Part shown: positions 7,148-19,098 of the stretch, one piece after another
Layout: every line of letters begins with the position of its first letter
How positions within the stretch are numbered: position 1 is the stretch's first letter
From: an uncultured Gammaproteobacteria bacterium
GTDB lineage: Bacteria; Pseudomonadota; Gammaproteobacteria; Poriferisulfidales; GCA-002705445
DNA length: 50,297 bases
Direction: 5' to 3'
NCBI GenBank assembly: GCA_913065025.1
Contig: CAJYAP010000005.1
Location: forward strand, 1-50,297
The notes under the pieces: generated by a model
Database searches by the model: none
Seen by the model: the letters and a program-made list of their open reading frames with translations, nothing else
Told to the model about the DNA's origin: nothing
Position numbers and translations under genes: made by a program

Positions 7148-7369
7148 TTTTTCTCCCCACTCATTATACTATTTTTGATAATAATTCTTACACTTAGCAA
7201 CTATAAAAGATATATTGCAAAGTAGGTGTTTAAATCCTTTATATATGCATCATTATCATTATTATATAGGTTTTTTTAAAATCAAATAAAAAATAGATAG
7301 CTGTTTACTTAAAACTATAGAATAATAAATACCTTAAGAATTGAAATTTTAATGCTAGGAGAATTGAAT

Positions 7370-8002
7370 ATGTCTATATCTAAAGAAGAATTAGAAAAAA
7401 TAATGGAAAAAAAATCTGGTATGCGAAGAGAAGCATATGACAGAAGAGCAGCTCAAGAGAATAAAGACGAAGTAAGCGCAAGTGCTTGTGAAAGGTTTAT
7501 GAGCCTTCCTGAGTATAAAAATGCTCAAGTCATAATGTGGTATATAGACTGTAGATCGGAAACAAGAACTAAACCTCATCTCATTAAAGAAGTTGAAAAG
7601 GGTGAAAAAAAAATTATTGTCCCTTATTGCACCGAAGATGAAAACGGAGAAAATAAGCTTGGTCTTTGGCATATGTCTAGTTTAGAAGAAATGGTAGTTG
7701 GTAAATGGGATATTTTAGAACCACCAAAAGAACTATGGGGAAATCCTGAAAAAGAAGTTACTCCACAAGAGCTTGATATGATAATGGTTCCTGGCACAGG
7801 TTTTGATAGAACTGGTGGAAGAATGGGGAATGGTCAAGGCTACTACGACAGAACTATGGAGCAAGTTAGGCCAGAATGTTCATTAGTAGCTCTTTGCTAT
7901 GAATCTCAGTTATTTGATGAAATTCTTGTCGCTCCTCATGACGTTTATATGGATAAAGTAGTTACAGAGTCTGATGTATACGAAGGCAAAGGAAGAGGTT
8001 AA
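7370..8002 (+). CDS. 5-formyltetrahydrofolate cyclo-ligase (methenyl-THF synthetase)
   Basis: ILEP, LDMIMVPGTGFDRTGGRMGNGQGYYDR and PHDVYMDKVVTE family motifs; ATG at 7370 follows an AGGAGA RBS at 7357-7362 (ORF track starts at 7352). Confidence 0.92.
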   Translation: MSISKEELEKIMEKKSGMRREAYDRRAAQENKDEVSASACERFMSLPEYKNAQVIMWYIDCRSETRTKPHLIKEVEKGEKKIIVPYCTEDENGENKLGLWHMSSLEEMVVGKWDILEPPKELWGNPEKEVTPQELDMIMVPGTGFDRTGGRMGNGQGYYDRTMEQVRPECSLVALCYESQLFDEILVAPHDVYMDKVVTESDVYEGKGRG

Positions 8003-8005
8003 ATT

Positions 8006-8929
8006 ATGACTGCAATTATAGACGACACATATGCTGAAGCTTTTAAAAGTATGTACTCTGAAGTACTTATTACTGCAATTAATAGAAAATGGCTAGATCA
8101 TGCTGTTAATGCTGCTACGGGAAATGCGTCAAGTAGTATTCTATGTGATTGTGAAGCTGGTCTGGATAGATATGTAGGGCCAGGTGGCGACGAAAGTGTT
8201 TCAACTCCTGATGGCAGACCTGGAGCAATAATACAGCTGCACATACCAAAATTTTGGAAAGATCCAAAAAAACTTGAGAAAGCTGCTTTAGTAAGAATCA
8301 GCCAAAATATTCTCACATGTCCTACTGCATCTTGCTTCAATCTTATGGAAGATAGCGAGTCTTATTTTAAACTTGGAAAAAAAGTTGCTTTTTTTGGCAA
8401 TAAATACCAAAAAAGAATAGAAAGGTTCGGAAGAAAAATGTGGTGGATACCTATATTAGGTGGTGAGTTTATCATGGATAGAAGGCTAGGATACTCTGAT
8501 GGTCTTATGGGTGGAAACCTATGGTACTTTGGTAAAAATACAAAATCAGCTTTAGAAGCTGCTGAAAAAGGTGTTGAGGCTATTTTGCCAATACCAGATG
8601 TTATTACTACTTTTCCTGGTGGTATTGCAGGTAGTGGGTCTAAAGCTGGAAGTGACTATGATTTTACAATAGCTAGCACATATGAGAAGTTCTGCCCTTT
8701 ACTTCAAGATAACCCTGATGTTGAAGCTGCTTTGCCTGAAGGAGTAAATTCAGTAATGGAAATTATAATGAATGGTAAAGATATGAGATCTATCATAATT
8801 GCTACTCAAGCAGCAATTGAAGCTTCTAAAGAAACTAAAGATTTACTTATGATTTCTGCAGGAAACTACAATGGTAAACTCGGTAAAAGTTTCATTTACC
8901 TTCACCCTGATAAGCAACCTGAAGCTTAA
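8006..8929 (+). CDS. Formylmethanofuran:tetrahydromethanopterin formyltransferase family protein (divergent Ftr/FhcD paralog)
   Basis: DDTYAEAF, CEAG, TPDGRPG, LTCPT, GGNL, FPGGI..SGSK and SAGNY.GKLG motifs of the Ftr family; no fhcA/B/C next to it. Confidence 0.9.
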   Translation: MTAIIDDTYAEAFKSMYSEVLITAINRKWLDHAVNAATGNASSSILCDCEAGLDRYVGPGGDESVSTPDGRPGAIIQLHIPKFWKDPKKLEKAALVRISQNILTCPTASCFNLMEDSESYFKLGKKVAFFGNKYQKRIERFGRKMWWIPILGGEFIMDRRLGYSDGLMGGNLWYFGKNTKSALEAAEKGVEAILPIPDVITTFPGGIAGSGSKAGSDYDFTIASTYEKFCPLLQDNPDVEAALPEGVNSVMEIIMNGKDMRSIIIATQAAIEASKETKDLLMISAGNYNGKLGKSFIYLHPDKQPEA

Positions 8930-8954
8930 ACTAAAAATAATTTAAAAGATTAAT

Positions 8955-9824
8955 ATGAAATATACAGAAAAAGGAACTTTGATATTAGATGGGAGATTTG
9001 TAGCTCAAGAAATGCAAACTTCTATTAAGAAAAAAATTGACGAATCAGGTGTGGATATTACACTCGCGACCGTTTTAGTAGGCGATGATAAACCAAGTCA
9101 GCTTTATGTAAACAACAAACATAAGCAAGCTACTGCCTCATCTATTAAGTCGTTACATGTAAATCTTCCAGGAGATATTTCTCAATTAGAACTGGAAAAT
9201 AAAATATCAGAGCTTGGAAATGACTCTTCCGTAAATGGTATCCTTATACAAATGCCTTTACCAAAAGGATTGAATGAAGATAGTGTCATTGAGATGATTC
9301 CTACCAATAAAGATGTTGATGGTCTTAAAGAACAAAATCTTGGTAAATTAATTGTTGGAAATGATGTGCTACGACCATGCACACCTCTAGGAGTTATGAA
9401 ATTAATAGAGTACTATAAGCTTGAGACAGTAGGTAAAAAAGCTTTAGTTATAGGTAGATCAAGACTAGTTGGAATGCCTCAAGTTATTATGTTTGGGTCA
9501 AAAGGAGTTGATTGCACTGTCACATTAGCTCATTCTAGAACAAAAGATTTAGATGAATTAATTTCAGAATCCGAAATTGTAGTGCCAGCAATTGGTGTGC
9601 CAGGTATTATAAATGCTAAAAACGTAAAAAAAGATGCTATTTTACTTGATGTTGGTATAAGTAGTGACGAAAAAGGTATTCACGGAGATGTTGATTTTGA
9701 TTCTGTAGATGGAATAGCAAAGGCTGTTACCCCTATGCCCGGAGGTACTGGCCCAATGACAGTTGCAAGCTTGCTTGAAAATACCATGAAAGCTGCTCAA
9801 CTTCAGGGTATAATCTCTTCTTAA
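8955..9824 (+). CDS. folD: Bifunctional methylene-THF dehydrogenase/methenyl-THF cyclohydrolase
   Basis: YVNNK, GILIQMPLP, KDVDG, PCTPLG, GRS..VG.P, GDVDF and TPMPGGTGPMT motifs. Confidence 0.95.
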   Translation: MKYTEKGTLILDGRFVAQEMQTSIKKKIDESGVDITLATVLVGDDKPSQLYVNNKHKQATASSIKSLHVNLPGDISQLELENKISELGNDSSVNGILIQMPLPKGLNEDSVIEMIPTNKDVDGLKEQNLGKLIVGNDVLRPCTPLGVMKLIEYYKLETVGKKALVIGRSRLVGMPQVIMFGSKGVDCTVTLAHSRTKDLDELISESEIVVPAIGVPGIINAKNVKKDAILLDVGISSDEKGIHGDVDFDSVDGIAKAVTPMPGGTGPMTVASLLENTMKAAQLQGIISS

Positions 9825-9958: not shown

Positions 9959-11197
9959 ATGCCTGGCCAAAAACTATCATTCCCTGGAAGAAATTATTTA
10001 TTTGCTCCTGGACCAACACATATTCCAACAGTAGTACAGAATGCTATGAACGTACCTATGGAGGATCACAGAGCTCCTGATTTCCCAGAGCTTGTAAAAC
10101 CAATTTTAAGAGATTTAAAGAAAGTATTTTTAACAAAAACTGGGACTCCATTTATTTTTCCAGCTACTGGAACAGCAGGATGGGAAGTTGCTTTAGCGAA
10201 TACACTTTCACCAGGCGATAAAATCCTAACTTCAAGATTTGGTCAATTTAGCCACCTTTGGTATGACTTAGCAAAAAGAATTGGGCTAGAAGTGGAGTTA
10301 ATTGATACAAAATGGGGAAATGGTATTGAAATAGAGAAATTTAAAAAAGCTTTAGCAAATGACAAAGATAAGAAAATAAAAGCTGTTGTTGTTTGTCATA
10401 ATGAAACTGCGACTGGAGTCACAAGTGATATTGCAGGATTAAGAAAAGCTATGGACCAAGTTAAACACCCTGCTCTTTTGATGGTTGATGGTGTAAGTTC
10501 TATTGCAAGTGTTGAATTTAGATTTGATAAATGGAAAATAGATATAGCGGTTAGTGGATCTCAAAAAGGGTTTATGCTTCCAGCTGGTTTAGCTATTCTA
10601 TGCTTTAGTAAAAAAGCATTAGCTATGCGAAAAACAGCAAAATGCAAAAGATGTTTCCTTGATATACAAGATCATATAAATACAAATAAAGACGGATTCT
10701 TTCCTTATACTCCACCTGTCAATCTTCTCAGAGGCTTGAGAGTTGCTATTGACCTTTTATTAGAAGAAGGAATGGAAAATGTGTTTGCTCGTCATAAAAG
10801 ATTGGCTAGTGGTGTAAGAGCAGCAATCAGAGCTTGGGGTTTAAAATTAGCAGCCTCATCTCCAAAATGGCAATCGGATACAGTTAGTGCGATATGGTTA
10901 GAACCAGGTTCAAAGAATAACCCAGATGGTAAAAAAGCTATGGAAGTAATTAGCATAGCTTACCATACATACAATATTTCACTCGGCGCTGGACTTACAC
11001 AGGTTGCTGGAAAAGTTTTTAGAATTGGTCACCTTGGTGATAACAACGAAGCAAGAATGATGGCTGCACTTGGTGCTGTTGAAATGGCTATGATTGATGC
11101 TGGAATTAAATTTACACCAGGAAGTGGAACTGGTGCAGCTGCTAAATATTGGACAAGTAATCCGAATAAAGCTTTAAAGAAAAAGAAGAAAAAATAA
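9959..11197 (+). CDS. sgaA: Serine--glyoxylate aminotransferase (class V PLP enzyme)
   Basis: GRNYLFAPGPT, EDHRAPDF, VCHNETATGVTSD, DGVSSIAS, SGSQKG (PLP lysine), FPYTPP and FRIGHLGD motifs; serine-cycle gene context. Confidence 0.92.
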   Translation: MPGQKLSFPGRNYLFAPGPTHIPTVVQNAMNVPMEDHRAPDFPELVKPILRDLKKVFLTKTGTPFIFPATGTAGWEVALANTLSPGDKILTSRFGQFSHLWYDLAKRIGLEVELIDTKWGNGIEIEKFKKALANDKDKKIKAVVVCHNETATGVTSDIAGLRKAMDQVKHPALLMVDGVSSIASVEFRFDKWKIDIAVSGSQKGFMLPAGLAILCFSKKALAMRKTAKCKRCFLDIQDHINTNKDGFFPYTPPVNLLRGLRVAIDLLLEEGMENVFARHKRLASGVRAAIRAWGLKLAASSPKWQSDTVSAIWLEPGSKNNPDGKKAMEVISIAYHTYNISLGAGLTQVAGKVFRIGHLGDNNEARMMAALGAVEMAMIDAGIKFTPGSGTGAAAKYWTSNPNKALKKKKKK

Positions 11198-11218: not shown

Positions 11219-12166
11219 ATGAGTCATAAAATATACGAACAAACTTCTAGAAGAGTGCAAAGAAGTGAGCTGGCTGTGCCTGGATCTAATCCAAAGATGT
11301 TTGAAAAAGCATTAAACAGCGACGTTGATTTTGTCTTTTTAGATTTAGAAGATGCTGTAGCTCCTGATGATAAAGTAACAGCAAGAAAAAATGTCATAGA
11401 AGCTCTTCAAGATTTAGATTGGCAAGGTAATGGCAAGACAATTTCTGTTCGAATTAATAGTATTGATACACACTATATGTATCGTGACGTAGTTGAAGTG
11501 GTAGAGCAAGCCGGTGAACACTTAGATACTATCTTACTTCCTAAAGCTGGTACAGCCTCTGATATCTACATGTTGTCAGCATTACTCAATCAAATTGAAA
11601 CTTCTAAAGGTCTTAAAAAGCGTATTGGTATTGAAATTTTAATTGAAACTACTTTAGGTATGGCGAATGTAATGGATATAGCTAAATCTGGTCGCGATGA
11701 AAGACTGGAAGCAATGCATTTTGGTGTTGCTGACTACGCTGCAAGTTGTAGGGCACGTACAACAGTTATTGGTGGTTTAAATCCAGATTATCCTGGCGAT
11801 CAATGGCATGCTGATTTGTCACAAATGTTAGTAGCATGCAGAGCATACGGTTTAAGAGCAATAGATGGTCCATTTGGGGATTTTAAAGACCCATCAAGTT
11901 ATACTTTAGCTGCAAAAAGAGCTGCTGCTCTTGGGTATGAAGGAAAATGGGCTATTCACCCTTCGCAAATCGAGCTAGCAAACGAAGTATTTACACCTCC
12001 ACCAGCAGAAGTTGATAAAGCAAAAAGAATTTTAATAGCTTTAGATGAAGCTGCAAAAGCAGGTCAAGGGGCCGCATCATTAGATGGTAGATTAATTGAT
12101 GCTGCATCAGCAAAAATGGCAGAAAACATTGTTGAAACTGACAAAGCTATAAATTCAAAAAAGTAA
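11219..12166 (+). CDS. mcl: Malyl-CoA lyase (HpcH/HpaI aldolase/citrate lyase family)
   Basis: RSELAVPGSN, FLDLEDAVAP, DTHYMYRDV, HFGVADYAAS, DQWH, DGPFGDF and GKWAIHPSQ motifs. Confidence 0.9.
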   Translation: MSHKIYEQTSRRVQRSELAVPGSNPKMFEKALNSDVDFVFLDLEDAVAPDDKVTARKNVIEALQDLDWQGNGKTISVRINSIDTHYMYRDVVEVVEQAGEHLDTILLPKAGTASDIYMLSALLNQIETSKGLKKRIGIEILIETTLGMANVMDIAKSGRDERLEAMHFGVADYAASCRARTTVIGGLNPDYPGDQWHADLSQMLVACRAYGLRAIDGPFGDFKDPSSYTLAAKRAAALGYEGKWAIHPSQIELANEVFTPPPAEVDKAKRILIALDEAAKAGQGAASLDGRLIDAASAKMAENIVETDKAINSKK

Positions 12167-12192: not shown

Positions 12193-13356
12193 TTGGACAT
12201 ACATGAATATCAGGCAAAAAAAATATTATCATCCTACGGTGTACAAATTTTAGATGGAGAACTTGCACTTAACGCTTCAGAAGCTGTAGCGGCATTTAAC
12301 AAATTAGATTCAGATATATGTGTTGTAAAAGCACAAGTTCATTCTGGTGCTAGAGGTAAAGCTGGCGGGATAGTACTGTGTAAAACTGAAGAAGAAGTTA
12401 AAATTGCATCAAACAAACTTTTTGGTACCCACCTAAAAACTATACAAACTGGTGATGAAGGTAAGATAATTGAGAGACTATATATAGAATCCGGTTGTGA
12501 TATTGATAGAGAGATATACTTAGCTTTTGTAATGGATAGAGCTTCACAAAGAATTGTTATAGTAGCTTCTGCGGAAGGTGGGATGTCTATAGAAGAACTT
12601 GCTATTGAAAAACCTGACTCAATCAAAAAAATAGAAATAGACCCAGTAGTTGGACTTACAGGATTCCAAGCTAGAGAATTAAGCTTTGCCTTAAATCTGC
12701 CTAAAGAAGCTCTTGGGAAAGCCGTAAAATTATTTATGGGTTGCTATAAAGCAATGACTAATTTAGATATGAATATGTTAGAAATAAATCCATTAGTGTT
12801 AACAAAGGACAATGATTTAATAGCATTAGATGCAAAAATTAGTTTTGATGATAATGCTATGTTTAAGCACCCAGATATTGATGCACTAAATGATAATGCT
12901 CAAAAAGATCCAAGAGAGGTTGCAGCAAAAGAACATGATTTAAGTTATGTCGGTTTAGACGGCGATATTGGTTGTATTATAAATGGTGCTGGTTTAGCTA
13001 TGGCCTCCATGGATATGATTAAATATTGCGGGGGAGAGCCTGCAAACTTTTTAGACATTGGTGGCGGAGCTTCACCAGAAAGAGTTGGGAAAGCTTTTGA
13101 ACTTGTTTTAGCTGACAAAAAAGTAAAAGCAATGCTTGTTAATGTTTATGCTGGTATTAATAGATGTGATTGGATAGCTGAAGGATTGGTTCAAGTAATT
13201 CCAAAAGTAAATTTACAAATTCCTTTAATAGTTAGGCTATCTGGAACAAATGTGGAAGAAGGTATTAAGATAGTAAAAGATAGCGGACTTCCAATTATTT
13301 TAGCTGACACTTTAAAAGATGCAGCTCAAAAAGCAGTTGATGCTGCCAAACAATAA
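12193..13356 (+). CDS. mtkA: Malate--CoA ligase (malate thiokinase) beta subunit
   Basis: SucC-like fold with MtkA-type MDIHEYQAK and AGINRCDW (SucC typically has GGIVRCD); TTG start after a GGGG RBS; directly after mcl. Confidence 0.87.
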   Translation: MDIHEYQAKKILSSYGVQILDGELALNASEAVAAFNKLDSDICVVKAQVHSGARGKAGGIVLCKTEEEVKIASNKLFGTHLKTIQTGDEGKIIERLYIESGCDIDREIYLAFVMDRASQRIVIVASAEGGMSIEELAIEKPDSIKKIEIDPVVGLTGFQARELSFALNLPKEALGKAVKLFMGCYKAMTNLDMNMLEINPLVLTKDNDLIALDAKISFDDNAMFKHPDIDALNDNAQKDPREVAAKEHDLSYVGLDGDIGCIINGAGLAMASMDMIKYCGGEPANFLDIGGGASPERVGKAFELVLADKKVKAMLVNVYAGINRCDWIAEGLVQVIPKVNLQIPLIVRLSGTNVEEGIKIVKDSGLPIILADTLKDAAQKAVDAAKQ

Positions 13357-13370
13357 TAAAGGGGTAAATA

Positions 13371-14261
13371 ATGTCAGTTTTATTAAATAAAAATACAAAA
13401 GTTTTAGTTCAAGGAATTACAGGGAGAATCGGTAATTTCCATGCTGAAGAAATGATTGCATATGGCACAAATGTAGTAGCTGGTGTAACACCAGGAAAAG
13501 GTGGTTTAACTCATCTCGGAAAACCTGTTTTTAATACGGTAAAAGAGGCTGTTGAAGAAACTGGAGCAGAAGCAACGATAGTTTTTGTTCCCGCTGCCGC
13601 TGCCGCTGATGGTATTATGGAAGCTGCAGATGCTGGAATTAAATATGCTGTCTCAATTACAGATGGAATACCTGCTCACGACATGATAAGAGTCAAAAGG
13701 TATATGCTTAGATATAAAAAAGATGAAAGAATGATTTTAACAGGACCAAATTGCGCAGGAACTATTACGCCTGGTGAAGCCATGATTGGAATAATGCCTG
13801 GTCATATATATATGCCTGGTGAAGTTGGTGTTATTGGAAGATCTGGAACTCTCGGTTACGAAGCAGCCTCTCAGATGAAGGCGGAAGGAATTGGTATTTC
13901 AACTAGTGTTGGTATCGGGGGCGATCCAATAAACGGTAGCTCGCATAAAGATATTCTAGAGTTATTTAATGAGGATGATAAAACAAAAGCAGTTATGATA
14001 ATCGGTGAAATTGGCGGACCACAAGAAGCAGAAGCCGCAGAATATATTCAAAGAAATATGAAAAAACCAGTTGCAGCATATATTGCCGGGCTAACTGCTC
14101 CAAAAGGAAGAAGAATGGGTCATGCTGGAGCTATTGTTTCAGGTAAAGGTGAAAGTGCAGCAGAGAAAGTTGAACTTCTTAAAGAAGCCGGAATTCATAT
14201 AATTCCTAACCCTTCTGAAATGGGAAGTACAATGAAAGAAGTTATGGATAAACATTTATAA
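13371..14261 (+). CDS. mtkB: Malate--CoA ligase alpha subunit
   Basis: SucD-like with MtkB-type TDGIPAHDM, GPNCAG and GIMPGHIY; MGHAGA phospho-His motif. Confidence 0.87.
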   Translation: MSVLLNKNTKVLVQGITGRIGNFHAEEMIAYGTNVVAGVTPGKGGLTHLGKPVFNTVKEAVEETGAEATIVFVPAAAAADGIMEAADAGIKYAVSITDGIPAHDMIRVKRYMLRYKKDERMILTGPNCAGTITPGEAMIGIMPGHIYMPGEVGVIGRSGTLGYEAASQMKAEGIGISTSVGIGGDPINGSSHKDILELFNEDDKTKAVMIIGEIGGPQEAEAAEYIQRNMKKPVAAYIAGLTAPKGRRMGHAGAIVSGKGESAAEKVELLKEAGIHIIPNPSEMGSTMKEVMDKHL

Positions 14262-14279: not shown

Positions 14280-15251
14280 ATGAGTAAACCTACAGTATTA
14301 GTTACAAGAAAATGGCCTTCTGAAGTAGAAGAAGAATTAAAATCAAAATATGATGTAACACTTAATGAGAAGGACGTGCCTATGAGCATTCCTGAACTTC
14401 AAGCAGCGTTTCAAAATTATGATTGCGTTTGCCCAACTGTTACAGACCCTATTAATGCAGAAGTACTTTCTGTAGAAAATAAAAAAGCTAAAATAATAGC
14501 GAGTTTTGGCGTTGGATTTAACCATATAGATCTTGATGCAGCAAAAAAAGAAAATTTAGTTGTTACAAATACACCTGAAGTTCTTACAGACTGTACAGCA
14601 GATATAGCAATGACTTTGCTGCTAAGTGCCGCAAGAAGGACTAGTGAAGGAGAAAGAGAATTAAGAGCTGGCAAATGGGCTGGATGGAGACCAACGCATC
14701 TAAGAGGTACACAAGTAACAGGCAAAACTTTGGGTTGCATTGGTTTTGGAAGAATAGCTCAAGCTACAGCTGATAGAGCTCATTTTGGATTTGGAATGAA
14801 AATTATATTTTCGGATCCATATATGCCATCAGACGAAGTTATTAAAAAATATGATGCTACACCATGCTCAAGTGTTGAAGAGGTTTTAGAAAAAGCAGAT
14901 TTTGTTTCTATTCACTGCCCAGGCGGAGAAAGTACTTATCATCTAATGAATAAAGAAAGAATTGGTATGATGAAAAAAGGCGCTTATCTAATAAACTCAG
15001 CTAGAGGTGATGTTATTGATAACGACGCTTTAATAGAGGCATTAAAAAATAAAACAATCGCTGGGGCAGGATTAGATGTGTTTGAAGGTGAGCCGAAGTT
15101 AAATCCAGGATTCTTAGATTGCGAAAATGCTGTACTGCTTCCTCATTTAGGTAGTGCCTCAACTGAAACAAGAATAGCAATGGGCATGAGAGTACTTGAA
15201 AATATGGAGGCTTACTATAGTGATAAAGAGCCCGGAGATAGGGTAGCTTAA
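14280..15251 (+). CDS. D-glycerate dehydrogenase / hydroxypyruvate reductase (D-2-hydroxyacid dehydrogenase family)
   Basis: FGVGFNHID, TNTPEVLTDCTAD, GFGRIA, INSARG, GLDVFEGEP and LPHLGSA motifs; last gene of the serine-cycle cluster. Confidence 0.88.
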   Translation: MSKPTVLVTRKWPSEVEEELKSKYDVTLNEKDVPMSIPELQAAFQNYDCVCPTVTDPINAEVLSVENKKAKIIASFGVGFNHIDLDAAKKENLVVTNTPEVLTDCTADIAMTLLLSAARRTSEGERELRAGKWAGWRPTHLRGTQVTGKTLGCIGFGRIAQATADRAHFGFGMKIIFSDPYMPSDEVIKKYDATPCSSVEEVLEKADFVSIHCPGGESTYHLMNKERIGMMKKGAYLINSARGDVIDNDALIEALKNKTIAGAGLDVFEGEPKLNPGFLDCENAVLLPHLGSASTETRIAMGMRVLENMEAYYSDKEPGDRVA

Positions 15252-15274: not shown

Positions 15275-15301
15275 AAAAGCTAGTTATTACTAGCTTTTTT
15301 T
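15275..15301. terminator. Intrinsic terminator, probably bidirectional
   Basis: AAAAGCTAGT-TATT-ACTAGCTTTT hairpin ending in a T7 run, between convergent genes. Confidence 0.8.
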
Positions 15302-15313
15302 GTATACAATAAT

Positions 15314-15982
15314 TTACTCTCTTATAGAAATCTCTTTTTCAATTTTAGAAAGCACTGCTTTAATATCAGAAATCTCTGTAAGAGTTTCCATATCTTTTTT
15401 TACAAGATTTATATTAACTTGAGCTAATTTCAACTCTTTATTATATTTTCCTATGCTAGTAGTATCATTTTTCTTATCTTTAACTAATCTAGAATAAAAC
15501 TTTTTACTTTCTTCTGTTTCATGAAAAGCACTCATCATAGCTAAATATGCTGAGCCTAGGCGAAAATCATAAGCTTTATAATCTCTTAAATTTTTTACTA
15601 GCGGCCTATTATCTTTTATTATATTCATAAAAGTATCTTTAAAACTTAGTAATGTATTTTCTATTTCTATATTTACTTTGTAATCTTGAATAATTTCATC
15701 TATAACATTCGTTATCTGAATTCTCACATCATCATATTCAAGTAGAGCTACTAATAACTTTTTTTCTAAATTTTTTTTAGAATCTATTTCTTTTATACCA
15801 TCTTCATCAAGATAATTTTTAAGAGAAATTCTTGTTTTTTGCAAATCTTTTATATTCATACTCTCTAAATTATATGAATATTTTGAAATATAATTAGAAT
15901 CAATTATAGGATGAGGCTCATCTGTTGCAGAATAAGAATTTATAGATAGCAATAGCATTGTAGTTAATATTAAATATTTCAT
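15314..15982 (-). CDS. Hypothetical exported alpha-helical protein
   Basis: 222-aa ORF with a Sec-type signal peptide (MKYLILTTMLLLSINSYS/A) and AGGA RBS; 13 bp downstream of the ALDH gene; family not recognised. Confidence 0.75.
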   Translation of the reverse strand: MKYLILTTMLLLSINSYSATDEPHPIIDSNYISKYSYNLESMNIKDLQKTRISLKNYLDEDGIKEIDSKKNLEKKLLVALLEYDDVRIQITNVIDEIIQDYKVNIEIENTLLSFKDTFMNIIKDNRPLVKNLRDYKAYDFRLGSAYLAMMSAFHETEESKKFYSRLVKDKKNDTTSIGKYNKELKLAQVNINLVKKDMETLTEISDIKAVLSKIEKEISIRE

Positions 15983-15995
15983 AGATTCCTAAAAA

Positions 15996-17444
15996 TTATA
16001 AAGTTATATTGTTTGAATTTATTATGATAAGTTTATCATATAATAAATCAGAAAATGAGTATTCTATTCCACCTACAGCTTCCCCTGAATGCTTTATACC
16101 ACCAAATGGCATCCAGTCTACTCTAAATGCAGTTTGTTCATTTATAAATACACTTTTAGCATCAAGATTTTCATAGCATAATATTGCTGTATCAATGTTT
16201 TTTGTGTACACGGATGACTGGAATGCAAACTTATCATGGTTTGCTTTCTGTATAGCTTCATCTATTGTGTTGAAGCTATATAGACATAGAACTGGACCAA
16301 AAATTTCGTGGCTGCTTACTGTAGAGTTTTCTTTTGGATTTTTTAAAACTGTGCATTCATAAGTTGTTTCATTTTTAGCAAACCCACCACATATTAATTC
16401 AGCACCTTCGCTTATTGATTTTTTTATAACTTTATCTATTCTTTTAACTTCAGAAGGTCTAATTAATGGCCCAACATCTGTTGTTATTTTTCTTGGATCT
16501 CCAACTTTTATTTTTAAGATTGCCTTTTTTATAAGTTCTGTGAATTGATCAATCAAATCTTCGTGAATAATAACTTTTTGAATTGATACGCACACTTGCC
16601 CTGCATGATAGAAAGCGCCTCTTAGTATAGACGGTAATATTTTTTGTATGTCAGCATCTTTATCTATTATTACAGAACCAACACCTCCATGTTCCATTGC
16701 GCATTTTGCACCTGGTGGCATCATAGTCTTTAATTTCCATCCAACATCAGAGCTACCGATAAAAGATAGAAAAGATATTCTTGGGTCTTTAACAAATTTT
16801 TGTGTAATGATGTGATTTTTAATATTGATCATCTGACAAAATTCTTTTGGTAACCCTGATTCTAATAATAACTTTATAAACTCATAACACGAAACTGGAG
16901 TTTCTAATGAAGGCTTAATAATAATTGGACATCCAGCTGCTATAGCTGGTCCTATCTGATGAATAACTAAATTCAATGGATGGTTAAACGCACTGATAGC
17001 TAGTACTGGCCCGACTGGAAATTTTCTTGTAAATGCTATTTTATTAACTGAAGCTTTATTAATATTCATAGGTATTTCAGTTCCATGAGATTTCTTTAAA
17101 GCTTCTGCACACAGTTCTAAACCGTTTACTGCTCTTTCAACTTCAATTTTTGAATCTTTTAAGGGCTTACCGCCCTCAAGTGCAATTATATTAGTAAATT
17201 TTCTTGAATTTTTTAAAAGCTTATTTCTACAGTTTTTTAAAATCTCTAATCTTTTGATCTTACTTAAATACTTTTTATTATTTTTAAAAGCGTTTGATGA
17301 AACATCAAGAATTTGATCTACTTCTTTTTTAGAAATACATTCTACCTTCCCTATTTTTTTTAAATCCCATGGCGAGTATAAATCAACATATGTTGGGTCT
17401 TTTATTTTTATAGGCGTGATATTTTTGATATTTCTAACCGTCAT
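15996..17444 (-). CDS. Aldehyde dehydrogenase (ALDH21/RL0313-like; candidate succinate-semialdehyde dehydrogenase)
   Basis: SAFNHPLNL, FIGS, MEHGG (catalytic Glu), GQVCVS (catalytic Cys), EIFGPV, FRVDWMPFGG.K.SG. Confidence 0.9.
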   Translation of the reverse strand: MTVRNIKNITPIKIKDPTYVDLYSPWDLKKIGKVECISKKEVDQILDVSSNAFKNNKKYLSKIKRLEILKNCRNKLLKNSRKFTNIIALEGGKPLKDSKIEVERAVNGLELCAEALKKSHGTEIPMNINKASVNKIAFTRKFPVGPVLAISAFNHPLNLVIHQIGPAIAAGCPIIIKPSLETPVSCYEFIKLLLESGLPKEFCQMINIKNHIITQKFVKDPRISFLSFIGSSDVGWKLKTMMPPGAKCAMEHGGVGSVIIDKDADIQKILPSILRGAFYHAGQVCVSIQKVIIHEDLIDQFTELIKKAILKIKVGDPRKITTDVGPLIRPSEVKRIDKVIKKSISEGAELICGGFAKNETTYECTVLKNPKENSTVSSHEIFGPVLCLYSFNTIDEAIQKANHDKFAFQSSVYTKNIDTAILCYENLDAKSVFINEQTAFRVDWMPFGGIKHSGEAVGGIEYSFSDLLYDKLIIINSNNITL

Positions 17445-19098
17445 ATGTTTTCTCTAGTGAGCCTAAAAAATCAGTCAATTTTTCATTTTCTGAATAATCT
17501 ATTGGTATTACGAATAAAGTTGGGCCTTTAAGACCTTCGGTCTCATTTAGCCTTTTTGTTATTTTTGAGCTGTCATTCTCGTATATGTAATTCCAATTAA
17601 ATGATTGAGCTAATTGCTCCCATTGAGGATTATCAAAATCAAGGTCTGTTGATTTTCCAAATTCTGCTTGCTGCTTCCATTTTATTAAACCGTAAGATTT
17701 ATCCTCCCAAATTATTGCCACAAAATCAGACCTCATTCTCTTTGCTGTTTCCATCTCCTGAAGATTCATTAAAAAACCAGCATCACCACATATAGCGAAT
17801 ATTTTTTTCTTATTATTTGATAGTGACGCTGCTATTGCCGCTGGTAATGCATATCCCATTGAGCAAAATCCATTTGGTATTATGCAAGTGTTTGGTTCGT
17901 AACATGGGTAGTGTCTTGCAATCCACATTTTGTGTGCCCCAACATCAGATATTAATATATCGTTCTTACTTAAAAAATTTCTCAAATCATAAAGAAACTT
18001 CTGGGGTTTTATCAGGCCTTTTTGCTTATCATCTTTATACTTTTCATTATCAACTTTCAGCTCATTTCTTAATTTTTTTACATTTTGTAAAGCGTATGGC
18101 TTAATTCCTTCTCTATCTATTATTTTATTTAATACAGATAAGGAATGGGCTAGATCTCCAACCACTTCTACCTGAGGTATATAATGTTCGTCAATTTCAG
18201 CGGCTTCAAAATCTATATGTATAATTTTTGACTTTGAATTTCTGTTCCAAAGTTTAGGATGGTATTCAACCATGTCGTATCCAAGTGTAATAACTAAATC
18301 AGAATCTTTAATTGCTATATCTCCAAAATCAATAGCTCCCAAACCTACTGTTGAAAGATAATATTCAGAGTTGCAGTCTACTGCTCCTTTACCCATAAAT
18401 GTTGTAACAACAGGAATATTGGTCCTTTCACAAAAGTCTCTGAGTTGACGTGATGATCTTTTCCTTATTGCTCCATTTCCAGCAATAAGTATTGGTGACT
18501 TTGCCTCAATCATTAGTTTGAAGGCTTTATATATAATATCATCTTCAGCTATTGATCTTCTGTAGGGAAAGGATTTCAGTGGTTTGGCGTTCACATCTAA
18601 CTTTGATATATCTTCTGGTAACTCTATATGAACAGCACCTGGTTTTTCTAACGTTGCGAGTCTTACAGCTTTTCTTACAATCTCGGGAATTGTTTTTGGA
18701 TTTCTAATAGATGTTGTCCACTTAGTAACAGACTTAAACATATTGCACACATCCAATATTTGATGTGACTCCTTATGAAGTCTATCTGATGAACCTTGTC
18801 CTGTAATGACAAGTATCGGGGAATGGTCCATATTTGCATCAGCTACGCCTGTAAGTAAATTAGTCGCTCCCGGCCCGAGTGTGCTTAAACAGCAAGAAAG
18901 TTTACCAGTTAACTTTCCATATGATTCTGCCATAAAAGCTGCTCCCTGCTCATGCCTTGTCAAAATAAATTTTATCTTCTTAGACTCGTGAAGAGACATT
19001 AAAAAATCAGCATTTTCCTCTCCAGGAACGCCAAAAATATACTCAATACCTTCATTTTCAAGGCACTTTACAAATAAATCAGAAGTCTTCATATTCAT
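17434..19098 (-). CDS. ThDP-dependent enzyme, acetolactate-synthase-large-subunit-like (candidate 2-oxoglutarate decarboxylase)
   Basis: FGVPGEEN, RHEQGAAFMA, TLGPGATN, ESHQ, DVGAHKMW.AR and GDAGF ThDP-binding motif; no regulatory small subunit nearby. Confidence 0.88.
   Translation of the reverse strand: MNMKTSDLFVKCLENEGIEYIFGVPGEENADFLMSLHESKKIKFILTRHEQGAAFMAESYGKLTGKLSCCLSTLGPGATNLLTGVADANMDHSPILVITGQGSSDRLHKESHQILDVCNMFKSVTKWTTSIRNPKTIPEIVRKAVRLATLEKPGAVHIELPEDISKLDVNAKPLKSFPYRRSIAEDDIIYKAFKLMIEAKSPILIAGNGAIRKRSSRQLRDFCERTNIPVVTTFMGKGAVDCNSEYYLSTVGLGAIDFGDIAIKDSDLVITLGYDMVEYHPKLWNRNSKSKIIHIDFEAAEIDEHYIPQVEVVGDLAHSLSVLNKIIDREGIKPYALQNVKKLRNELKVDNEKYKDDKQKGLIKPQKFLYDLRNFLSKNDILISDVGAHKMWIARHYPCYEPNTCIIPNGFCSMGYALPAAIAASLSNNKKKIFAICGDAGFLMNLQEMETAKRMRSDFVAIIWEDKSYGLIKWKQQAEFGKSTDLDFDNPQWEQLAQSFNWNYIYENDSSKITKRLNETEGLKGPTLFVIPIDYSENEKLTDFLGSLEKTYDG

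What the first reader, a model, noticed from the sequence alone, without database searches (positions are those of the whole stretch)
7370..9824. Candidate new C1 route: Ftr-like formyltransferase + 5-formyl-THF cyclo-ligase + FolD as a formate-independent methanopterin-to-folate bridge
Seen: three tightly spaced co-oriented genes (3 bp and 25 bp gaps) encode 5-FCL, an Ftr/FhcD-family protein and FolD, directly in front of sga-mcl-mtkAB-hpr. There is no ftfL, mtdA, fch or fhcABC anywhere in the 50 kb. Established: Ftr moves a formyl group between formyl-methanofuran (methylofuran in bacteria) and N5 of H4MPT. 5-FCL uses ATP to convert N5-formyl-THF irreversibly to methenyl-THF. FolD can reduce that to methylene-THF, the C1 donor of the serine cycle. 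Methylorubrum extorquens instead connects the two pterin pools through free formate and FtfL. Inference: an Ftr paralog accepting THF would make exactly the N5-formyl-THF that 5-FCL needs, giving formyl-methylofuran (or formyl-H4MPT) -> 5-CHO-THF -> CH=THF -> CH2=THF -> serine. The cost is one ATP, as with FtfL, but no free formate is released. This would turn 5-FCL from a metabolite-repair enzyme into a flux-carrying step. I know of no characterisation of such a module, but could not search the literature. Alternative: the pair only detoxifies the 5-CHO-THF by-product of high SHMT flux.
Basis: partly seen in the sequence, partly recalled or inferred. Interest (0 to 1): 0.9.

Follow-up and report, generated by a model that had tools for sequence, protein, structure and literature searches.

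The report
Formyltransferase paralog paired with 5-formyl-folate cycloligase
A marine bacterium carries a second, unusual copy of a methanogen-type formyl-transfer enzyme welded to the gene that recycles 5-formyl-folate, a pairing conserved across two phyla that probably moves one-carbon units into the folate pool without passing through free formate.

Summary
In detail: 5-FCL (7370-8002), an Ftr-family gene (8006-8929) and folD (8955-9824) are co-oriented, with gaps of 3 and 25 bp, ahead of sga-mcl-mtkAB-hpr.

- **Second paralog.** The Ftr-like protein (FtrL) is a divergent second copy. A complete B-A-D-C formyl-methanofuran cluster lies on contig C16, and fae/mch lie on C1.
- **Distinct clade.** FtrL forms a tight clade on a long stem (67-99% identity inside it, 47% or less to other full-length family representatives) and keeps the catalytic Glu.
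- **Conserved pairing.** 5-FCL lies directly upstream in 76 of 78 evaluable loci, from Gammaproteobacteria and Planctomycetota. It is the only 5-FCL in all 51 carrier genomes searched.
- **Contrast with ftfL.** Among gammaproteobacterial carriers, 6 of 49 have FTHFS and 42 of 49 have neither FTHFS nor PurU. Among FhcD-only Gammaproteobacteria, 33 of 42 have FTHFS. Planctomycetota show no such contrast.

Best reading (about 0.5): FtrL formylates N5 of tetrahydrofolate from formyl-methylofuran or formyl-H4MPT, 5-FCL spends ATP to make methenyl-THF, and FolD reduces it. No enzyme assay exists. I found no description of this module in seven literature searches.

The parts
7370..8002 (+). 5-formyltetrahydrofolate cyclo-ligase (5-FCL), of the subfamily linked to FtrL; 210 aa from the ATG at 7370
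   Evidence: PF01812 131.1 bits and TIGR02727 127.7 bits against a cut-off of 84.9. AGGAGA lies 7 nt before the ATG at 7370. It is the only 5-FCL in the genome. Identity is 57.8-98.6% in the 75 adjacent orthologues scored, and 25-36% to the 5-FCLs of FhcD-only Gammaproteobacteria over near-full-length matches.
8006..8929 (+). FtrL: divergent paralog of formylmethanofuran:H4MPT formyltransferase (Ftr/FhcD family)
   Evidence: PF01913 and PF02741. TIGR03119 scores 297.8 bits against a cut-off of 292.6. It is 37% identical to the genome's own FhcD. It scores 220 bits to archaeal Ftr 1FTR and 160 bits to M. extorquens FhcD 6S6Y_D, with the catalytic Glu aligned at E252. It forms a separate clade on a long stem.
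8955..9824 (+). FolD, bifunctional methylene-THF dehydrogenase / methenyl-THF cyclohydrolase; the only copy found in the genome
   Evidence: PF00763 112.1 and PF02882 183 bits. tblastn finds a single hit in the genome. folD follows FtrL within 300 nt in 55 of 75 evaluable loci.
9959..11197 (+). serine-glyoxylate-type class V aminotransferase (sga-like)
   Evidence: PF00266. The nearest NCBIfam model is BhcA, at 561 bits, below its cut-off of 650. An sga homologue lies within 5 kb downstream of FtrL in 55 of 71 evaluable loci.
11219..12166 (+). malyl-CoA lyase-like gene (mcl)
   Evidence: PF03328 HpcH/HpaI 121.3 bits. Related lyase models all score below their cut-offs.
12193..14261 (+). malate-CoA ligase subunits (mtkA 12193-13356, mtkB 13371-14261)
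   Evidence: NF010647 malate--CoA ligase beta scores 614.5 bits against a cut-off of 604. The alpha subunit matches NF004230 at 423 bits.
14280..15251 (+). hydroxypyruvate/glyoxylate reductase-like 2-hydroxyacid dehydrogenase (hpr)
   Evidence: PF02826 and PF00389. Glyoxylate reductase models score below their cut-offs.
15275..15298 (.). terminator-like two-way hairpin (10-bp stem, T runs on both sides) after hpr; possible end of the fcl-to-hpr unit
   Evidence: The number of terminator-like sites in the region is not above chance (6 found, 5.4 expected), so only its position is suggestive.

Best explanation
**Proposed function.** FtrL and the 5-FCL directly upstream of it form a two-enzyme module. 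It carries formyl groups from the methanopterin/methylofuran side of C1 metabolism into the tetrahydrofolate pool without free formate.

**Proposed steps**
1. Fae, an MtdB-like dehydrogenase and Mch, all encoded on contig C1, oxidise formaldehyde to N5-formyl-H4MPT.
2. FtrL is a free-standing enzyme closer to archaeal Ftr than to FhcD. It takes the formyl group from formyl-methylofuran, or directly from formyl-H4MPT, and places it on N5 of THF.
3. N5-formyl-THF is a stable dead end. The co-translated 5-FCL therefore spends one ATP to cyclise it to 5,10-methenyl-THF.
4. FolD reduces methenyl-THF to methylene-THF for serine hydroxymethyltransferase and the serine-cycle genes that follow. It also hydrolyses methenyl-THF to 10-formyl-THF for biosynthesis.

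**Shown here**
- The gene identities.
- The separate FtrL clade with its catalytic Glu retained.
- The conserved pairing.
- A single 5-FCL in each carrier.
- The scarcity of FTHFS and PurU in gammaproteobacterial carriers.

**Inferred**
- THF as the acceptor.
- The identity of the formyl donor.
- The direction of flux.
- Any channelling between the two enzymes.

**Possible reason the module is needed.** Most carriers have a B subunit that looks redox-competent, of the Fwd type. Such a complex would oxidise formyl-methylofuran to CO2 internally and leave no formate pool for FtfL to use.
For: **1. FtrL is a second, distinct paralog**
- The genome has two FTR-family genes, at 202 and 146 bits.
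- The stronger one lies in a B-A-D-C cluster.
- 49 of 50 carrier genomes have both score classes.
- In the tree FtrL is a tight clade on a long stem. Pairwise identity among 30 paired members is at least 67%. Identity is 47% or less to other full-length family representatives, apart from one clade representative at 62%.
- The catalytic Glu is kept and is invariant in 30 of 30 aligned sequences.

**2. The pairing is conserved**
- 5-FCL is directly upstream and co-oriented in 76 of 78 evaluable loci. Many pairs have overlapping or very short junctions.
- In Planctomycetota loci the flanking genes are unrelated, so the pair is the conserved unit.

**3. The linked 5-FCL is the only one, and it is unusually conserved**
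- It is the only 5-FCL in G000 and in all 50 carriers searched.
- It passes the bacterial MTHFS equivalog model.
- 36 of 42 FhcD-only Gammaproteobacteria have a 5-FCL match to this query. 34 of those are distant, at 25-36% identity over near-full-length matches.
- The linked enzyme must therefore also cover the ordinary 5-formyl-THF reaction.

**4. Contrast in folate-formate enzymes**

| Group | FTHFS present | Neither FTHFS nor PurU |
|---|---|---|
| Gammaproteobacterial carriers | 6 of 49 | 42 of 49 |
| FhcD-only Gammaproteobacteria | 33 of 42 | 7 of 42 |

**5. Position in the cluster.** fcl-ftrL-folD sits in front of the serine-cycle genes. From recall, mtdA-fch occupies the comparable place in M. 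extorquens.

**6. Use of the furan cofactor**
- A Methylococcaceae MAG has fcl-ftrL-mfnB.
- G021, a 2.6 Mb record titled 'chromosome', has no canonical FhcD and no FhcA above cut-off.
- G021 keeps Fae, an MtdB-like gene and Mch and MfnB. Most of these lie beside fcl-ftrL-folD.

**7. Chemistry (established knowledge plus inference).** Ftr chemistry formylates N5 of a reduced pterin. N5-formyl-THF is known to be used only by 5-FCL and, slowly, by formiminotransferases (PMC3223725, passages).

**8. Fwd-type B subunits are commoner in carriers**
- They occur in 38 of 50 carriers and in 11 of 42 FhcD-only genomes.
- They carry a Cys-His active-site motif, or an in-frame TGA at that exact position in two Planctomycetota genes.

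**9. RNA libraries.** Contigs from marine RNA-seq libraries of two studies cover the genes. They bridge the fcl/ftrL junction (7563-8188) and the ftrL/folD junction (8782-9133). The tool cautions that such libraries can hold DNA.
Against: - **No biochemistry.** No Ftr-family enzyme is known to accept THF. That statement is from recall and was not checked in a paper here.
- **No contrast in Planctomycetota.** FTHFS is present in 1 of 4 carriers and in 7 of 24 FhcD-only genomes.
- **The two routes can coexist.** 6 of 49 gammaproteobacterial carriers have FTHFS as well.
- **Carriers are related.** They cluster in a few lineages, so the counts are not independent. In the class sample, carrier genomes fall in 6 families. 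4 of those families have no FTHFS match in any carrier searched, and 2 have one.
- **Single 5-FCL.** Because it is the only copy, the linkage could reflect something other than consecutive steps.
- **Donor access is unclear.** In M. extorquens methylofuran is tightly bound to Fhc and almost none is free (PMC6926001, passages). How FtrL would reach formyl-methylofuran is therefore open.
- **The 5-FCL family may accept another pterin.** THF-free methanogens also encode 5-FCL homologues, suggested to act on formyl-H4MPT (PMC3087415, passage).
- **The bridge may not be essential.** From record titles and one preprint, some carriers appear to belong to lineages predicted to obtain formaldehyde from methylated amines for the serine cycle (bioRxiv 10.64898/2026.04.01.715867, passages).
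- **G021 is not a clean case.** It has a FwdC-like domain gene beside NAD-type formate dehydrogenase genes, so it does handle formate.
- **folD is not always attached.** It is absent from the cluster in 20 of 75 loci.
Confidence: 0.5

Rival explanations
1. The module works on H4MPT only. FtrL is an ordinary free-standing formyl-methanofuran:H4MPT formyltransferase isoenzyme. The linked 5-FCL homologue cyclises N5-formyl-H4MPT to methenyl-H4MPT at the cost of ATP.
For: FtrL scores higher to archaeal Ftr (220 bits) than to FhcD (160 bits) and keeps the core conserved residues. 5-FCL homologues exist in methanogens that lack THF, and a role on formyl-H4MPT has been suggested for them (PMC3087415, passage). 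A related 5-FCL (48% identity) sits beside two Mpt_N-family genes in G390, which has no FtrL.
Against: Mch already catalyses this step reversibly without ATP, and it is present in G000 and G021. An ATP-driven copy would run a futile cycle against the oxidative pathway. All 51 carriers would then lack any THF-type 5-FCL, although 36 of 42 FhcD-only relatives have one. The enzyme passes the bacterial MTHFS equivalog model. This reading does not explain folD and the serine-cycle genes being attached, nor the scarcity of FTHFS.
Confidence: 0.15
2. The pair is a repair unit. Both enzymes dispose of the N5-formyl-THF made by the side reaction of serine hydroxymethyltransferase. 5-FCL does so with ATP, and FtrL does so without ATP by passing the formyl group to methylofuran or H4MPT for oxidation.
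For: 5-FCL is a known repair enzyme, and another formyl-transferring enzyme family (glutamate formiminotransferases) can replace it (PMC3223725, passages). High SHMT flux is expected in serine-cycle organisms.
Against: Two enzymes consuming the same substrate are an unlikely tightly linked pair. The pair also occurs in Planctomycetota loci with no serine-cycle genes nearby. G021 has no FhcA or canonical FhcD to dispose of the formyl group. Both proteins are at or near the top of the cluster for conservation, which is more than expected of a repair function. By inference, moving formyl from the very stable N5-formyl-THF to methylofuran should be uphill.
Confidence: 0.12
3. The link runs in the dissimilatory direction. 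FtrL moves formyl from the folate pool (10-formyl-THF) to methylofuran, so that folate-bound C1 units from demethylations can be oxidised by the Fwd/Fhc complex. It would stand in for the missing PurU and FTHFS.
For: 42 of 49 gammaproteobacterial carriers have neither PurU nor FTHFS, so folate-bound C1 has no known exit to formate. folD is adjacent.
Against: This does not explain the near-universal coupling to 5-FCL. Ftr chemistry acts at N5, not N10. G021 has no complex that could accept formyl-methylofuran.
Confidence: 0.08
4. There is no functional coupling. FtrL is a redundant FhcD isoenzyme that spread by horizontal transfer as a cassette together with a neighbouring housekeeping 5-FCL.
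For: Identities of 70-78% between Gammaproteobacteria and Planctomycetota suggest transfer as a unit. Pairwise identities of the two proteins correlate (r = 0.81), as any co-inherited genes would.
Against: Adjacency is kept in 76 of 78 loci while all flanking genes change. The resident 5-FCL was replaced in every carrier. The long stem and very short internal branches of the FtrL clade point to a changed and then tightly held function. A 1-Mb streamlined genome keeps both genes.
Confidence: 0.08

Closest known systems
Methylorubrum extorquens link between H4MPT and folate pools: FhcABCD releases formate, then FtfL (FTHFS), Fch and MtdA
   Same: It has the same start (formyl-H4MPT / formyl-methylofuran) and the same end (methylene-THF for the serine cycle). 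It costs one ATP. The folate-side genes sit with serine-cycle genes.
   Different: Here no FTHFS was found and no second Mpt_N-family dehydrogenase was found with the genome's own MtdB-like query. fch was not searched for. The proposed intermediate is N5-formyl-THF rather than free formate and N10-formyl-THF. The ATP is spent by 5-FCL rather than FtfL, and FolD replaces Fch plus MtdA.
Archaeal formylmethanofuran:H4MPT formyltransferase Ftr (Methanopyrus kandleri, PDB 1FTR/2FHJ)
   Same: It aligns over its full length at 220 bits, has the same two-lobe architecture, has the catalytic Glu aligned, and is encoded as a stand-alone gene.
   Different: FtrL is a separate clade with clade-specific changes. 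A Glu replaces an Arg that is conserved in 85% of other members (window residue 19). There are insertions at residues 60-62 and 85-86, and several invariant Arg/Lys residues where other members vary. It is always next to 5-FCL. The proposed acceptor is THF, which is untested.
FhcD subunit of the bacterial formyltransferase/hydrolase complex (PDB 6S6Y chain D)
   Same: It belongs to the same family, and both occur in bacteria with Fae/Mch and H4MPT biosynthesis genes.
   Different: FtrL is 37% identical to the genome's own FhcD and scores 160 bits to 6S6Y_D. It is not encoded with A/B/C subunits. It is present in G021, which lacks FhcA and canonical FhcD.
5-formyltetrahydrofolate cyclo-ligase (MTHFS/YgfA) as a metabolite-repair enzyme
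   Same: It has the same family and the same conserved glycine-rich ...GYYDR and PG..FD stretches seen in alignments to solved 5-FCLs. It is the only copy in the genome.
   Different: It belongs to a subfamily that is 57.8-98.6% identical across two phyla, against 25-36% to the 5-FCLs of FhcD-only Gammaproteobacteria. It is tightly linked to FtrL. The proposal is that it carries main assimilatory flux.
Glutamate formiminotransferases that moonlight as 5-formyl-THF:glutamate formyltransferases (Jeanguenin et al. 2010, as described in PMC3223725)
   Same: This is a precedent for ATP-free formyl exchange at N5 of THF, and for comparative genomics linking such an enzyme to 5-FCL.
   Different: It is an unrelated fold. 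It replaces 5-FCL (the two anticorrelate) rather than accompanying it, and it removes the formyl group rather than supplying it.

Membership tests
Ftr/FhcD family (PF01913 + PF02741; TIGR03119) | Two-lobe FTR + FTR_C architecture over the full length, scoring above curated cut-offs | tested here: met
   PF01913 144.1 and PF02741 160 bits. NF002554 scores 318.3 bits against 297, and TIGR03119 scores 297.8 bits against 292.6, so the margin is small.
Ftr/FhcD family (PF01913 + PF02741; TIGR03119) | Catalytic glutamate (Glu245 in M. kandleri Ftr, a number from recall; Glu252 in M. extorquens FhcD per PMC6926001) | tested here: met
   E252 of FtrL aligns with the Glu of the ...YEIV... stretch of 1FTR. 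It is invariant in 30 of 30 FtrL sequences.
FhcD (subunit of the FhcABCD complex) in the strict sense | Encoded with fhcA/B/C, and groups with characterised FhcD sequences | tested here: not met
   The canonical fhcD lies in the B-A-D-C cluster on C16, and FtrL is elsewhere. FtrL is a separate clade from the genome's own FhcD. G021 has FtrL but no FhcA above cut-off and no canonical FhcD.
Ftr/FhcD family | Transfers formyl between (formyl)methanofuran/methylofuran and N5 of H4MPT | not testable with these tools
   Only indirect hints exist. mfnB lies next to ftrL in L081, and MfnB is kept in G021.
5-formyltetrahydrofolate cyclo-ligase (PF01812; TIGR02727) | Domain over the full length above the equivalog cut-off, with conserved nucleotide- and folate-binding stretches | tested here: met
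   127.7 bits against 84.9. It aligns to solved 5-FCLs 1YDM and 1SOU with the G.G.GYYDR and PG..FD stretches matched. These stretches are invariant in 30 sequences.
5-formyltetrahydrofolate cyclo-ligase | Substrate is N5-formyl-THF | not testable with these tools
   Indirect support only. It is the only 5-FCL in G000 and in all 50 carriers searched.
Serine-cycle gene cluster (sga, hpr, mtkAB, mcl) | All five genes present and co-oriented | tested here: met
   mtkA passes its equivalog cut-off. The sga, mcl and hpr assignments rest on Pfam families and context. glyA, gck, ppc and eno were not searched for.
FtfL-dependent formate link between the H4MPT and THF pools | Formate-tetrahydrofolate ligase (PF01268) present | tested here: not met
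   No match in G000, which is 83% complete. No match in any of the 8 closest carrier genomes, G001-G008.

The most novel reading that the evidence does not exclude
FtrL is a formyl-methylofuran (or formyl-H4MPT):tetrahydrofolate N5-formyltransferase, an activity new for the Ftr family. Together with 5-FCL it forms a formate-free, ATP-driven bridge between the methanopterin and folate C1 pools. 5-FCL would then be a main-flux assimilatory enzyme in widespread marine Gammaproteobacteria, apparently including sponge-associated lineages, and in Planctomycetota. The bridge would have arisen alongside bacterial Fwd-type formyl-methanofuran dehydrogenases that never release formate.
Probability: 0.45. 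Interest if true: 0.88.

Novelty: new variant of a known kind. Interest (0 to 1): 0.78.

Why it matters
All textbook accounts connect the H4MPT oxidation pathway to the folate-dependent serine cycle through free formate and FtfL. If FtrL and 5-FCL do what is proposed, several things follow:
- Many abundant marine bacteria would use a different connection.
- An enzyme filed as metabolite repair would be a central assimilatory step.
- The Ftr family would gain a second pterin substrate.
- Metabolic reconstructions that score C1 assimilation by the presence of ftfL would be misreading these genomes.
- Synthetic methylotrophy would gain a short route from formyl carriers to methylene-THF that does not depend on a formate-dependent ligase.

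The hypothesis can be tested directly with two small soluble proteins and a spectrophotometric assay.

Tried and rejected
**Steps that gave no usable result**
- Complex prediction on two FtrL copies plus 5-FCL, each given as a 30-row alignment, returned 'no answer' with score 0.00. It says nothing for or against binding.
- A search for fused FtrL forms of 539-2000 aa found one unrelated protein at 33% identity. Fusions of about 517 aa fall in the 'near' length range. Only the best 120 hits of that range were visible, so they are not excluded.
- The promoter scan was not above chance (37 found, 30.2 expected).
- The protein-atlas look-ups only repeated the family names.
- The mirror correlation of FtrL and 5-FCL identities (r = 0.81) is what any co-inherited genes would give. 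I do not use it as evidence of interaction.

**Ideas considered and dropped**
- I first read G021 as lacking every Fhc/Fwd part. A later search found a FwdC-like domain there. It lies beside NuoE/F-like and Fdh-alpha genes, not beside A or D subunits. The inference from G021 is therefore weaker than I first thought.
- The idea that Fwd-type B subunits exclude FTHFS was rejected. 9 of the 11 FhcD-only genomes with the Fwd-type B subunit also have FTHFS.
- No PQQ alcohol dehydrogenase scored above cut-off in G000, so the C1 substrate of this organism remains unknown.

**Things I could not do**
- Residue-level comparison with the cofactor contacts of Ftr. The structural paper on 2FHJ was not in the library. 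Supplementary figure S8 of PMC6926001 lists the active-site residues, and supplements are closed.
- RNA contig depths were not used to rank genes, and uncovered stretches are not reported as findings.

**Literature**
Seven searches found no paper that links an Ftr-family gene with 5-FCL. Papers outside the held library, and supplements, could not be checked.

Full report
**1. The observation**

The ORF listing gives three co-oriented ORFs at 7352-8002, 8006-8929 and 8955-9824. Pfam and NCBIfam identify them as follows:
- A 5-formyltetrahydrofolate cyclo-ligase: PF01812 131.1 bits; TIGR02727 127.7 bits against a cut-off of 84.9.
- An Ftr/FhcD-family protein: PF01913 144.1 and PF02741 160 bits. 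TIGR03119 scores 297.8 bits against a cut-off of 292.6, so it passes only just.
- FolD: PF00763 and PF02882.

AGGAGA lies 7 nt upstream of that ATG, and it gives the 210 aa seen in most orthologues. The gaps are 3 nt and 25 nt.

The next five genes are sga-like, mcl-like, mtkA (614.5 bits against a cut-off of 604), mtkB and hpr-like. A terminator-like two-way hairpin follows hpr at 15275-15298.

**2. The rest of the genome**

The window is contig C5 of a 982,694-base, 36-contig assembly. It has about 30% G+C and is 83% complete.
- No FTHFS match was found.
- Contig C1 carries fae, a CitG-like gene, an MptN-like ligase, mch, an ATP-grasp gene, an Mpt_N-family (MtdB-like) dehydrogenase and beta-RFAP synthase.
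- Contig C16 carries a FwdD-like gene, then subunits B, A, D and C of the formyl-methanofuran complex, a ferredoxin and a GltD-like oxidoreductase.
- The D subunit there scores 411 bits on TIGR03119. It is the canonical FhcD.

The window's protein, which I call FtrL, is therefore a second paralog. It is 37% identical to the canonical FhcD. FolD, 5-FCL, Mch and the MtdB-like gene are each single-copy in the assembly.

**3. FtrL is its own clade**

The 120 best relatives are 74-99% identical. In a library clustered at 50% identity, the clade collapses to one full-length representative at 62% identity plus fragments. The next full-length proteins are 47% identical or less.

I built a tree from 60 sequences. 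These were 15 FtrL sequences, the genome's own FhcD and 44 representatives of 270-400 aa. Shorter representatives were dropped. The tree puts FtrL on a long stem with very short internal branches.

FtrL scores higher to archaeal Ftr structures (1FTR, 220 bits) than to M. extorquens FhcD (6S6Y_D, 160 bits). The catalytic Glu aligns and is invariant in 30 of 30 FtrL sequences.

Clade-specific features:
- A Glu where 85% of other members have Arg (window residue 19).
- Inserts at residues 60-62 and 85-86.
- Invariant basic residues (R55, K126, R137, R140, R160, K294) at positions that vary elsewhere.

I could not map these onto the cofactor pockets. The residue lists are in a paper not held in the library and in a closed supplement.

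**4. The pairing with 5-FCL**

A scan of one genome per species returned 80 loci.
- 5-FCL lies directly upstream and co-oriented in 76 of the 78 loci that have upstream sequence.
- One exception has it about 1 kb away on the other strand. The other has none in the locus.
- Junctions are mostly overlaps or a few bases.
- folD follows within 300 nt in 55 of 75 loci, and sga follows within 5 kb in 55 of 71.

The pair also occurs in MAGs labelled Planctomycetota (70-78% identity), where the flanking genes are unrelated. In a Methylococcaceae MAG, the methanofuran-biosynthesis gene mfnB follows ftrL.

G000 and all 50 carrier genomes that I searched have exactly one 5-FCL match. In most it lies directly beside FtrL, as coordinate comparison shows. 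In one (G044) it is on another contig, and in one (G049) it is about 1.2 kb away.

That 5-FCL is 57.8-98.6% identical among the 75 adjacent loci scored. In FhcD-only Gammaproteobacteria, 36 of 42 genomes have a 5-FCL match to this query:
- 34 are distant, at 25-36% identity over near-full-length matches and up to 45% over short C-terminal stretches.
- G149 (54%) is one exception. Its contig ends just after the gene.
- G390 (48%) is the other. There the gene sits beside two Mpt_N-family genes and no FtrL.

Across the cluster, FtrL and 5-FCL are at or near the top for conservation. Against L025, for example, the identities are fcl 76, ftrL 81, folD 55, sga 70, mcl 70, mtkA 60, mtkB 76 and hpr 70%.

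**5. Relation to ftfL**

I searched 50 of the 80 carrier genomes. The cap is 50 loci per call, and I left out mainly short contigs.

| Group | FTHFS present | PurU present | Neither |
|---|---|---|---|
| Gammaproteobacterial carriers, first set (44) | 4 full-length | 0 | 40 |
| Planctomycetota carriers, first set (6) | 0 (one fragment with a TGA) | 2 | 4 |
| Carriers in the class sample (7) | 2 | 1 | 4 |
| FhcD-only Gammaproteobacteria, class sample (42) | 33 | 5 | 7 |
| All unique gammaproteobacterial carriers (49) | 6 | 1 | 42 |

The class sample was an even draw of 401 genomes of the window's class. Of these, 54 have an FTR-family match. By score class, 9 are of the FtrL type, including G000 and one unpublished genome, and 45 have FhcD only. 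After dropping four unpublished genomes, 7 carriers and 42 FhcD-only genomes remained. Two of the 7 carriers are the same genomes as in the first set. The 33 FhcD-only matches for FTHFS include partial matches, matches cut by contig ends and two with an internal TGA.

A second phylum does not repeat the contrast. In 301 Planctomycetota, 28 have an FTR match. FTHFS is present in 1 of 4 carriers and in 7 of 24 FhcD-only genomes.

Carriers are related to each other, so these counts overstate independence.

**6. A possible reason: no formate pool**

The B subunit on C16 keeps a C-x2-C-x3-C...C motif and the active-site stretch SVCHGPS. It also has a FwdD-like partner.

By contrast, M. extorquens FhcB lacks the cofactor and iron-sulfur motifs (PMC6926001, passages). 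An opinion article states that fwdD is not present in Proteobacteria or Planctomycetes (PMC5020050, passage).

Proteins of this B type are at least 45% identical to the window genome's copy. They occur in 38 of 50 carriers of the first set and in 5 of 7 carriers of the class sample. They occur in 11 of 42 FhcD-only genomes.

In two Planctomycetota genes an in-frame TGA stands exactly where the Cys is. That is what a selenocysteine enzyme would show.

This fits a true formyl-methanofuran dehydrogenase that passes formate internally to its oxidising site. FtfL would then have nothing to work on. The fit is loose, because 9 of the 11 FhcD-only genomes with this B type also have FTHFS.

**7. G021**

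This 2.6 Mb record, titled 'chromosome', has FtrL but no canonical FhcD and no FhcA above cut-off. It has neither FTHFS nor PurU.

It keeps Fae, an MtdB-like gene, Mch, MptN and beta-RFAP synthase in one block beside hpr, fcl-ftrL-folD. MfnB lies a few kb further off. There, FtrL is the only recognisable user of the furan cofactor and the only exit from formyl-H4MPT.

One caveat applies. A FwdC-like domain gene lies elsewhere in G021, next to NuoE/F-like and Fdh-alpha genes.

**8. Mechanism**

Ftr chemistry formylates N5 of a reduced pterin. Applied to THF, it would give N5-formyl-THF. The passages I read name only 5-FCL and, slowly, formiminotransferases as enzymes that use this compound (PMC3223725, passages).

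A formyltransferase that loads THF would therefore need 5-FCL beside it, and that is the conserved arrangement. On energetics, PMC6926001 quotes +4.4 kJ/mol for transfer from formyl-H4MPT to methylofuran and -22.9 kJ/mol for hydrolysis of formyl-methylofuran. I infer that transfer to the very stable N5 position of THF is feasible. The stability of N5-formyl-THF is from recall.

The ATP cost equals that of FtfL.

The main rival is that the 5-FCL acts on formyl-H4MPT, as suggested for methanogen homologues (PMC3087415, passage). That is hard to square with three facts: Mch is present, this is the only 5-FCL in every carrier, and folD is attached.

**9. Expression**

Contigs from marine RNA-seq libraries (runs X1-X4, two studies) match the region at 95-100% identity. 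One spans 7563-8188, across the fcl/ftrL junction. Another spans 8782-9133, across the ftrL/folD junction. The tool cautions that RNA libraries can contain DNA and that a contig across two genes does not prove a single transcript.

**10. Literature**

Seven full-text searches found no description of an Ftr-family gene coupled to 5-FCL.

I read passages only, not whole texts, of these papers:
- PMC6926001
- PMC3087415
- PMC5020050
- PMC3223725
- PMC9874027
- bioRxiv 10.1101/2025.06.11.659106
- bioRxiv 10.64898/2026.04.01.715867

The last describes cultured marine Arenicellales with a serine cycle. Its text contains neither 'formyl' nor 'methanopterin'.

**11. Verdict**

The interpretation survives every computational test available here except replication of the ftfL contrast in Planctomycetota. 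It remains biochemically untested.

I put about 0.5 on the formate-free bridge. I rate it a new variant of known kinds: a new subfamily and a probable new substrate in the Ftr family, and a new role for 5-FCL.

Noticed in passing
G000 contig C16:14822-21810 (locus L005:4822-11810): The genome's formyl-methanofuran complex looks like a true dehydrogenase rather than the Fhc hydrolase. A FwdD-like gene precedes a B subunit that keeps a C-x2-C-x3-C...C motif and the SVCHGPS active-site stretch. A ferredoxin and a GltD-like oxidoreductase follow subunit C. An opinion article states that fwdD is not present in Proteobacteria (PMC5020050, passage).
   Followed up: partly
L092 (G046:C298:5000-6450) and L093 (G044:C80:1100-2550): In two Planctomycetota genomes the same B-subunit type has an in-frame TGA exactly at the position of the active-site Cys (...SL*HGPT...). 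This suggests a selenocysteine-containing bacterial formyl-methanofuran dehydrogenase.
   Followed up: partly
L081:10965-11672: In a Methylococcaceae MAG the gene after fcl-ftrL is mfnB (4-HFC-P synthase, 228 bits), the first step of methanofuran/methylofuran biosynthesis.
   Followed up: no
L088:4432-9482 (G390): A 5-FCL 48% identical to the window's lies in a genome without FtrL. It overlaps a PLP-dependent decarboxylase gene by 4 nt and sits back to back with two Mpt_N-family (MtdA/MtdB-like) genes. This 5-FCL subfamily therefore keeps company with H4MPT-linked genes even without FtrL.
   Followed up: partly
L091:8793-14996 (G021): A FwdC-like domain (261 bits) lies directly upstream of NuoE/F-like and Fdh-alpha genes, in a genome with no FhcA or canonical FhcD. 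In my ORF call it reads in one frame with a P-II-like N-terminal part.
   Followed up: no
window 12193-14261 and the whole genome G000: tblastn with MtkA and MtkB finds no second succinyl-CoA-ligase-like locus in the assembly. Either sucCD lies in the missing 17% of the genome, or this ligase serves both roles.
   Followed up: no
window 15314-19098, minus strand: Three genes converge on hpr: a 222-aa ORF with no Pfam match at the threshold used, an aldehyde dehydrogenase (394 bits) and a thiamine-diphosphate enzyme. They may belong to glyoxylate or C2 metabolism.
   Followed up: no
whole genome G000: No PQQ-dependent alcohol dehydrogenase scores above cut-off (best 27.9 bits). No close homologue of G021's NAD-type formate dehydrogenase was found (best 25-26% identity). 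MfnB was not found in G000, although the close relative G004 has it. The C1 substrate of this organism is unknown, and the assembly is incomplete.
   Followed up: partly
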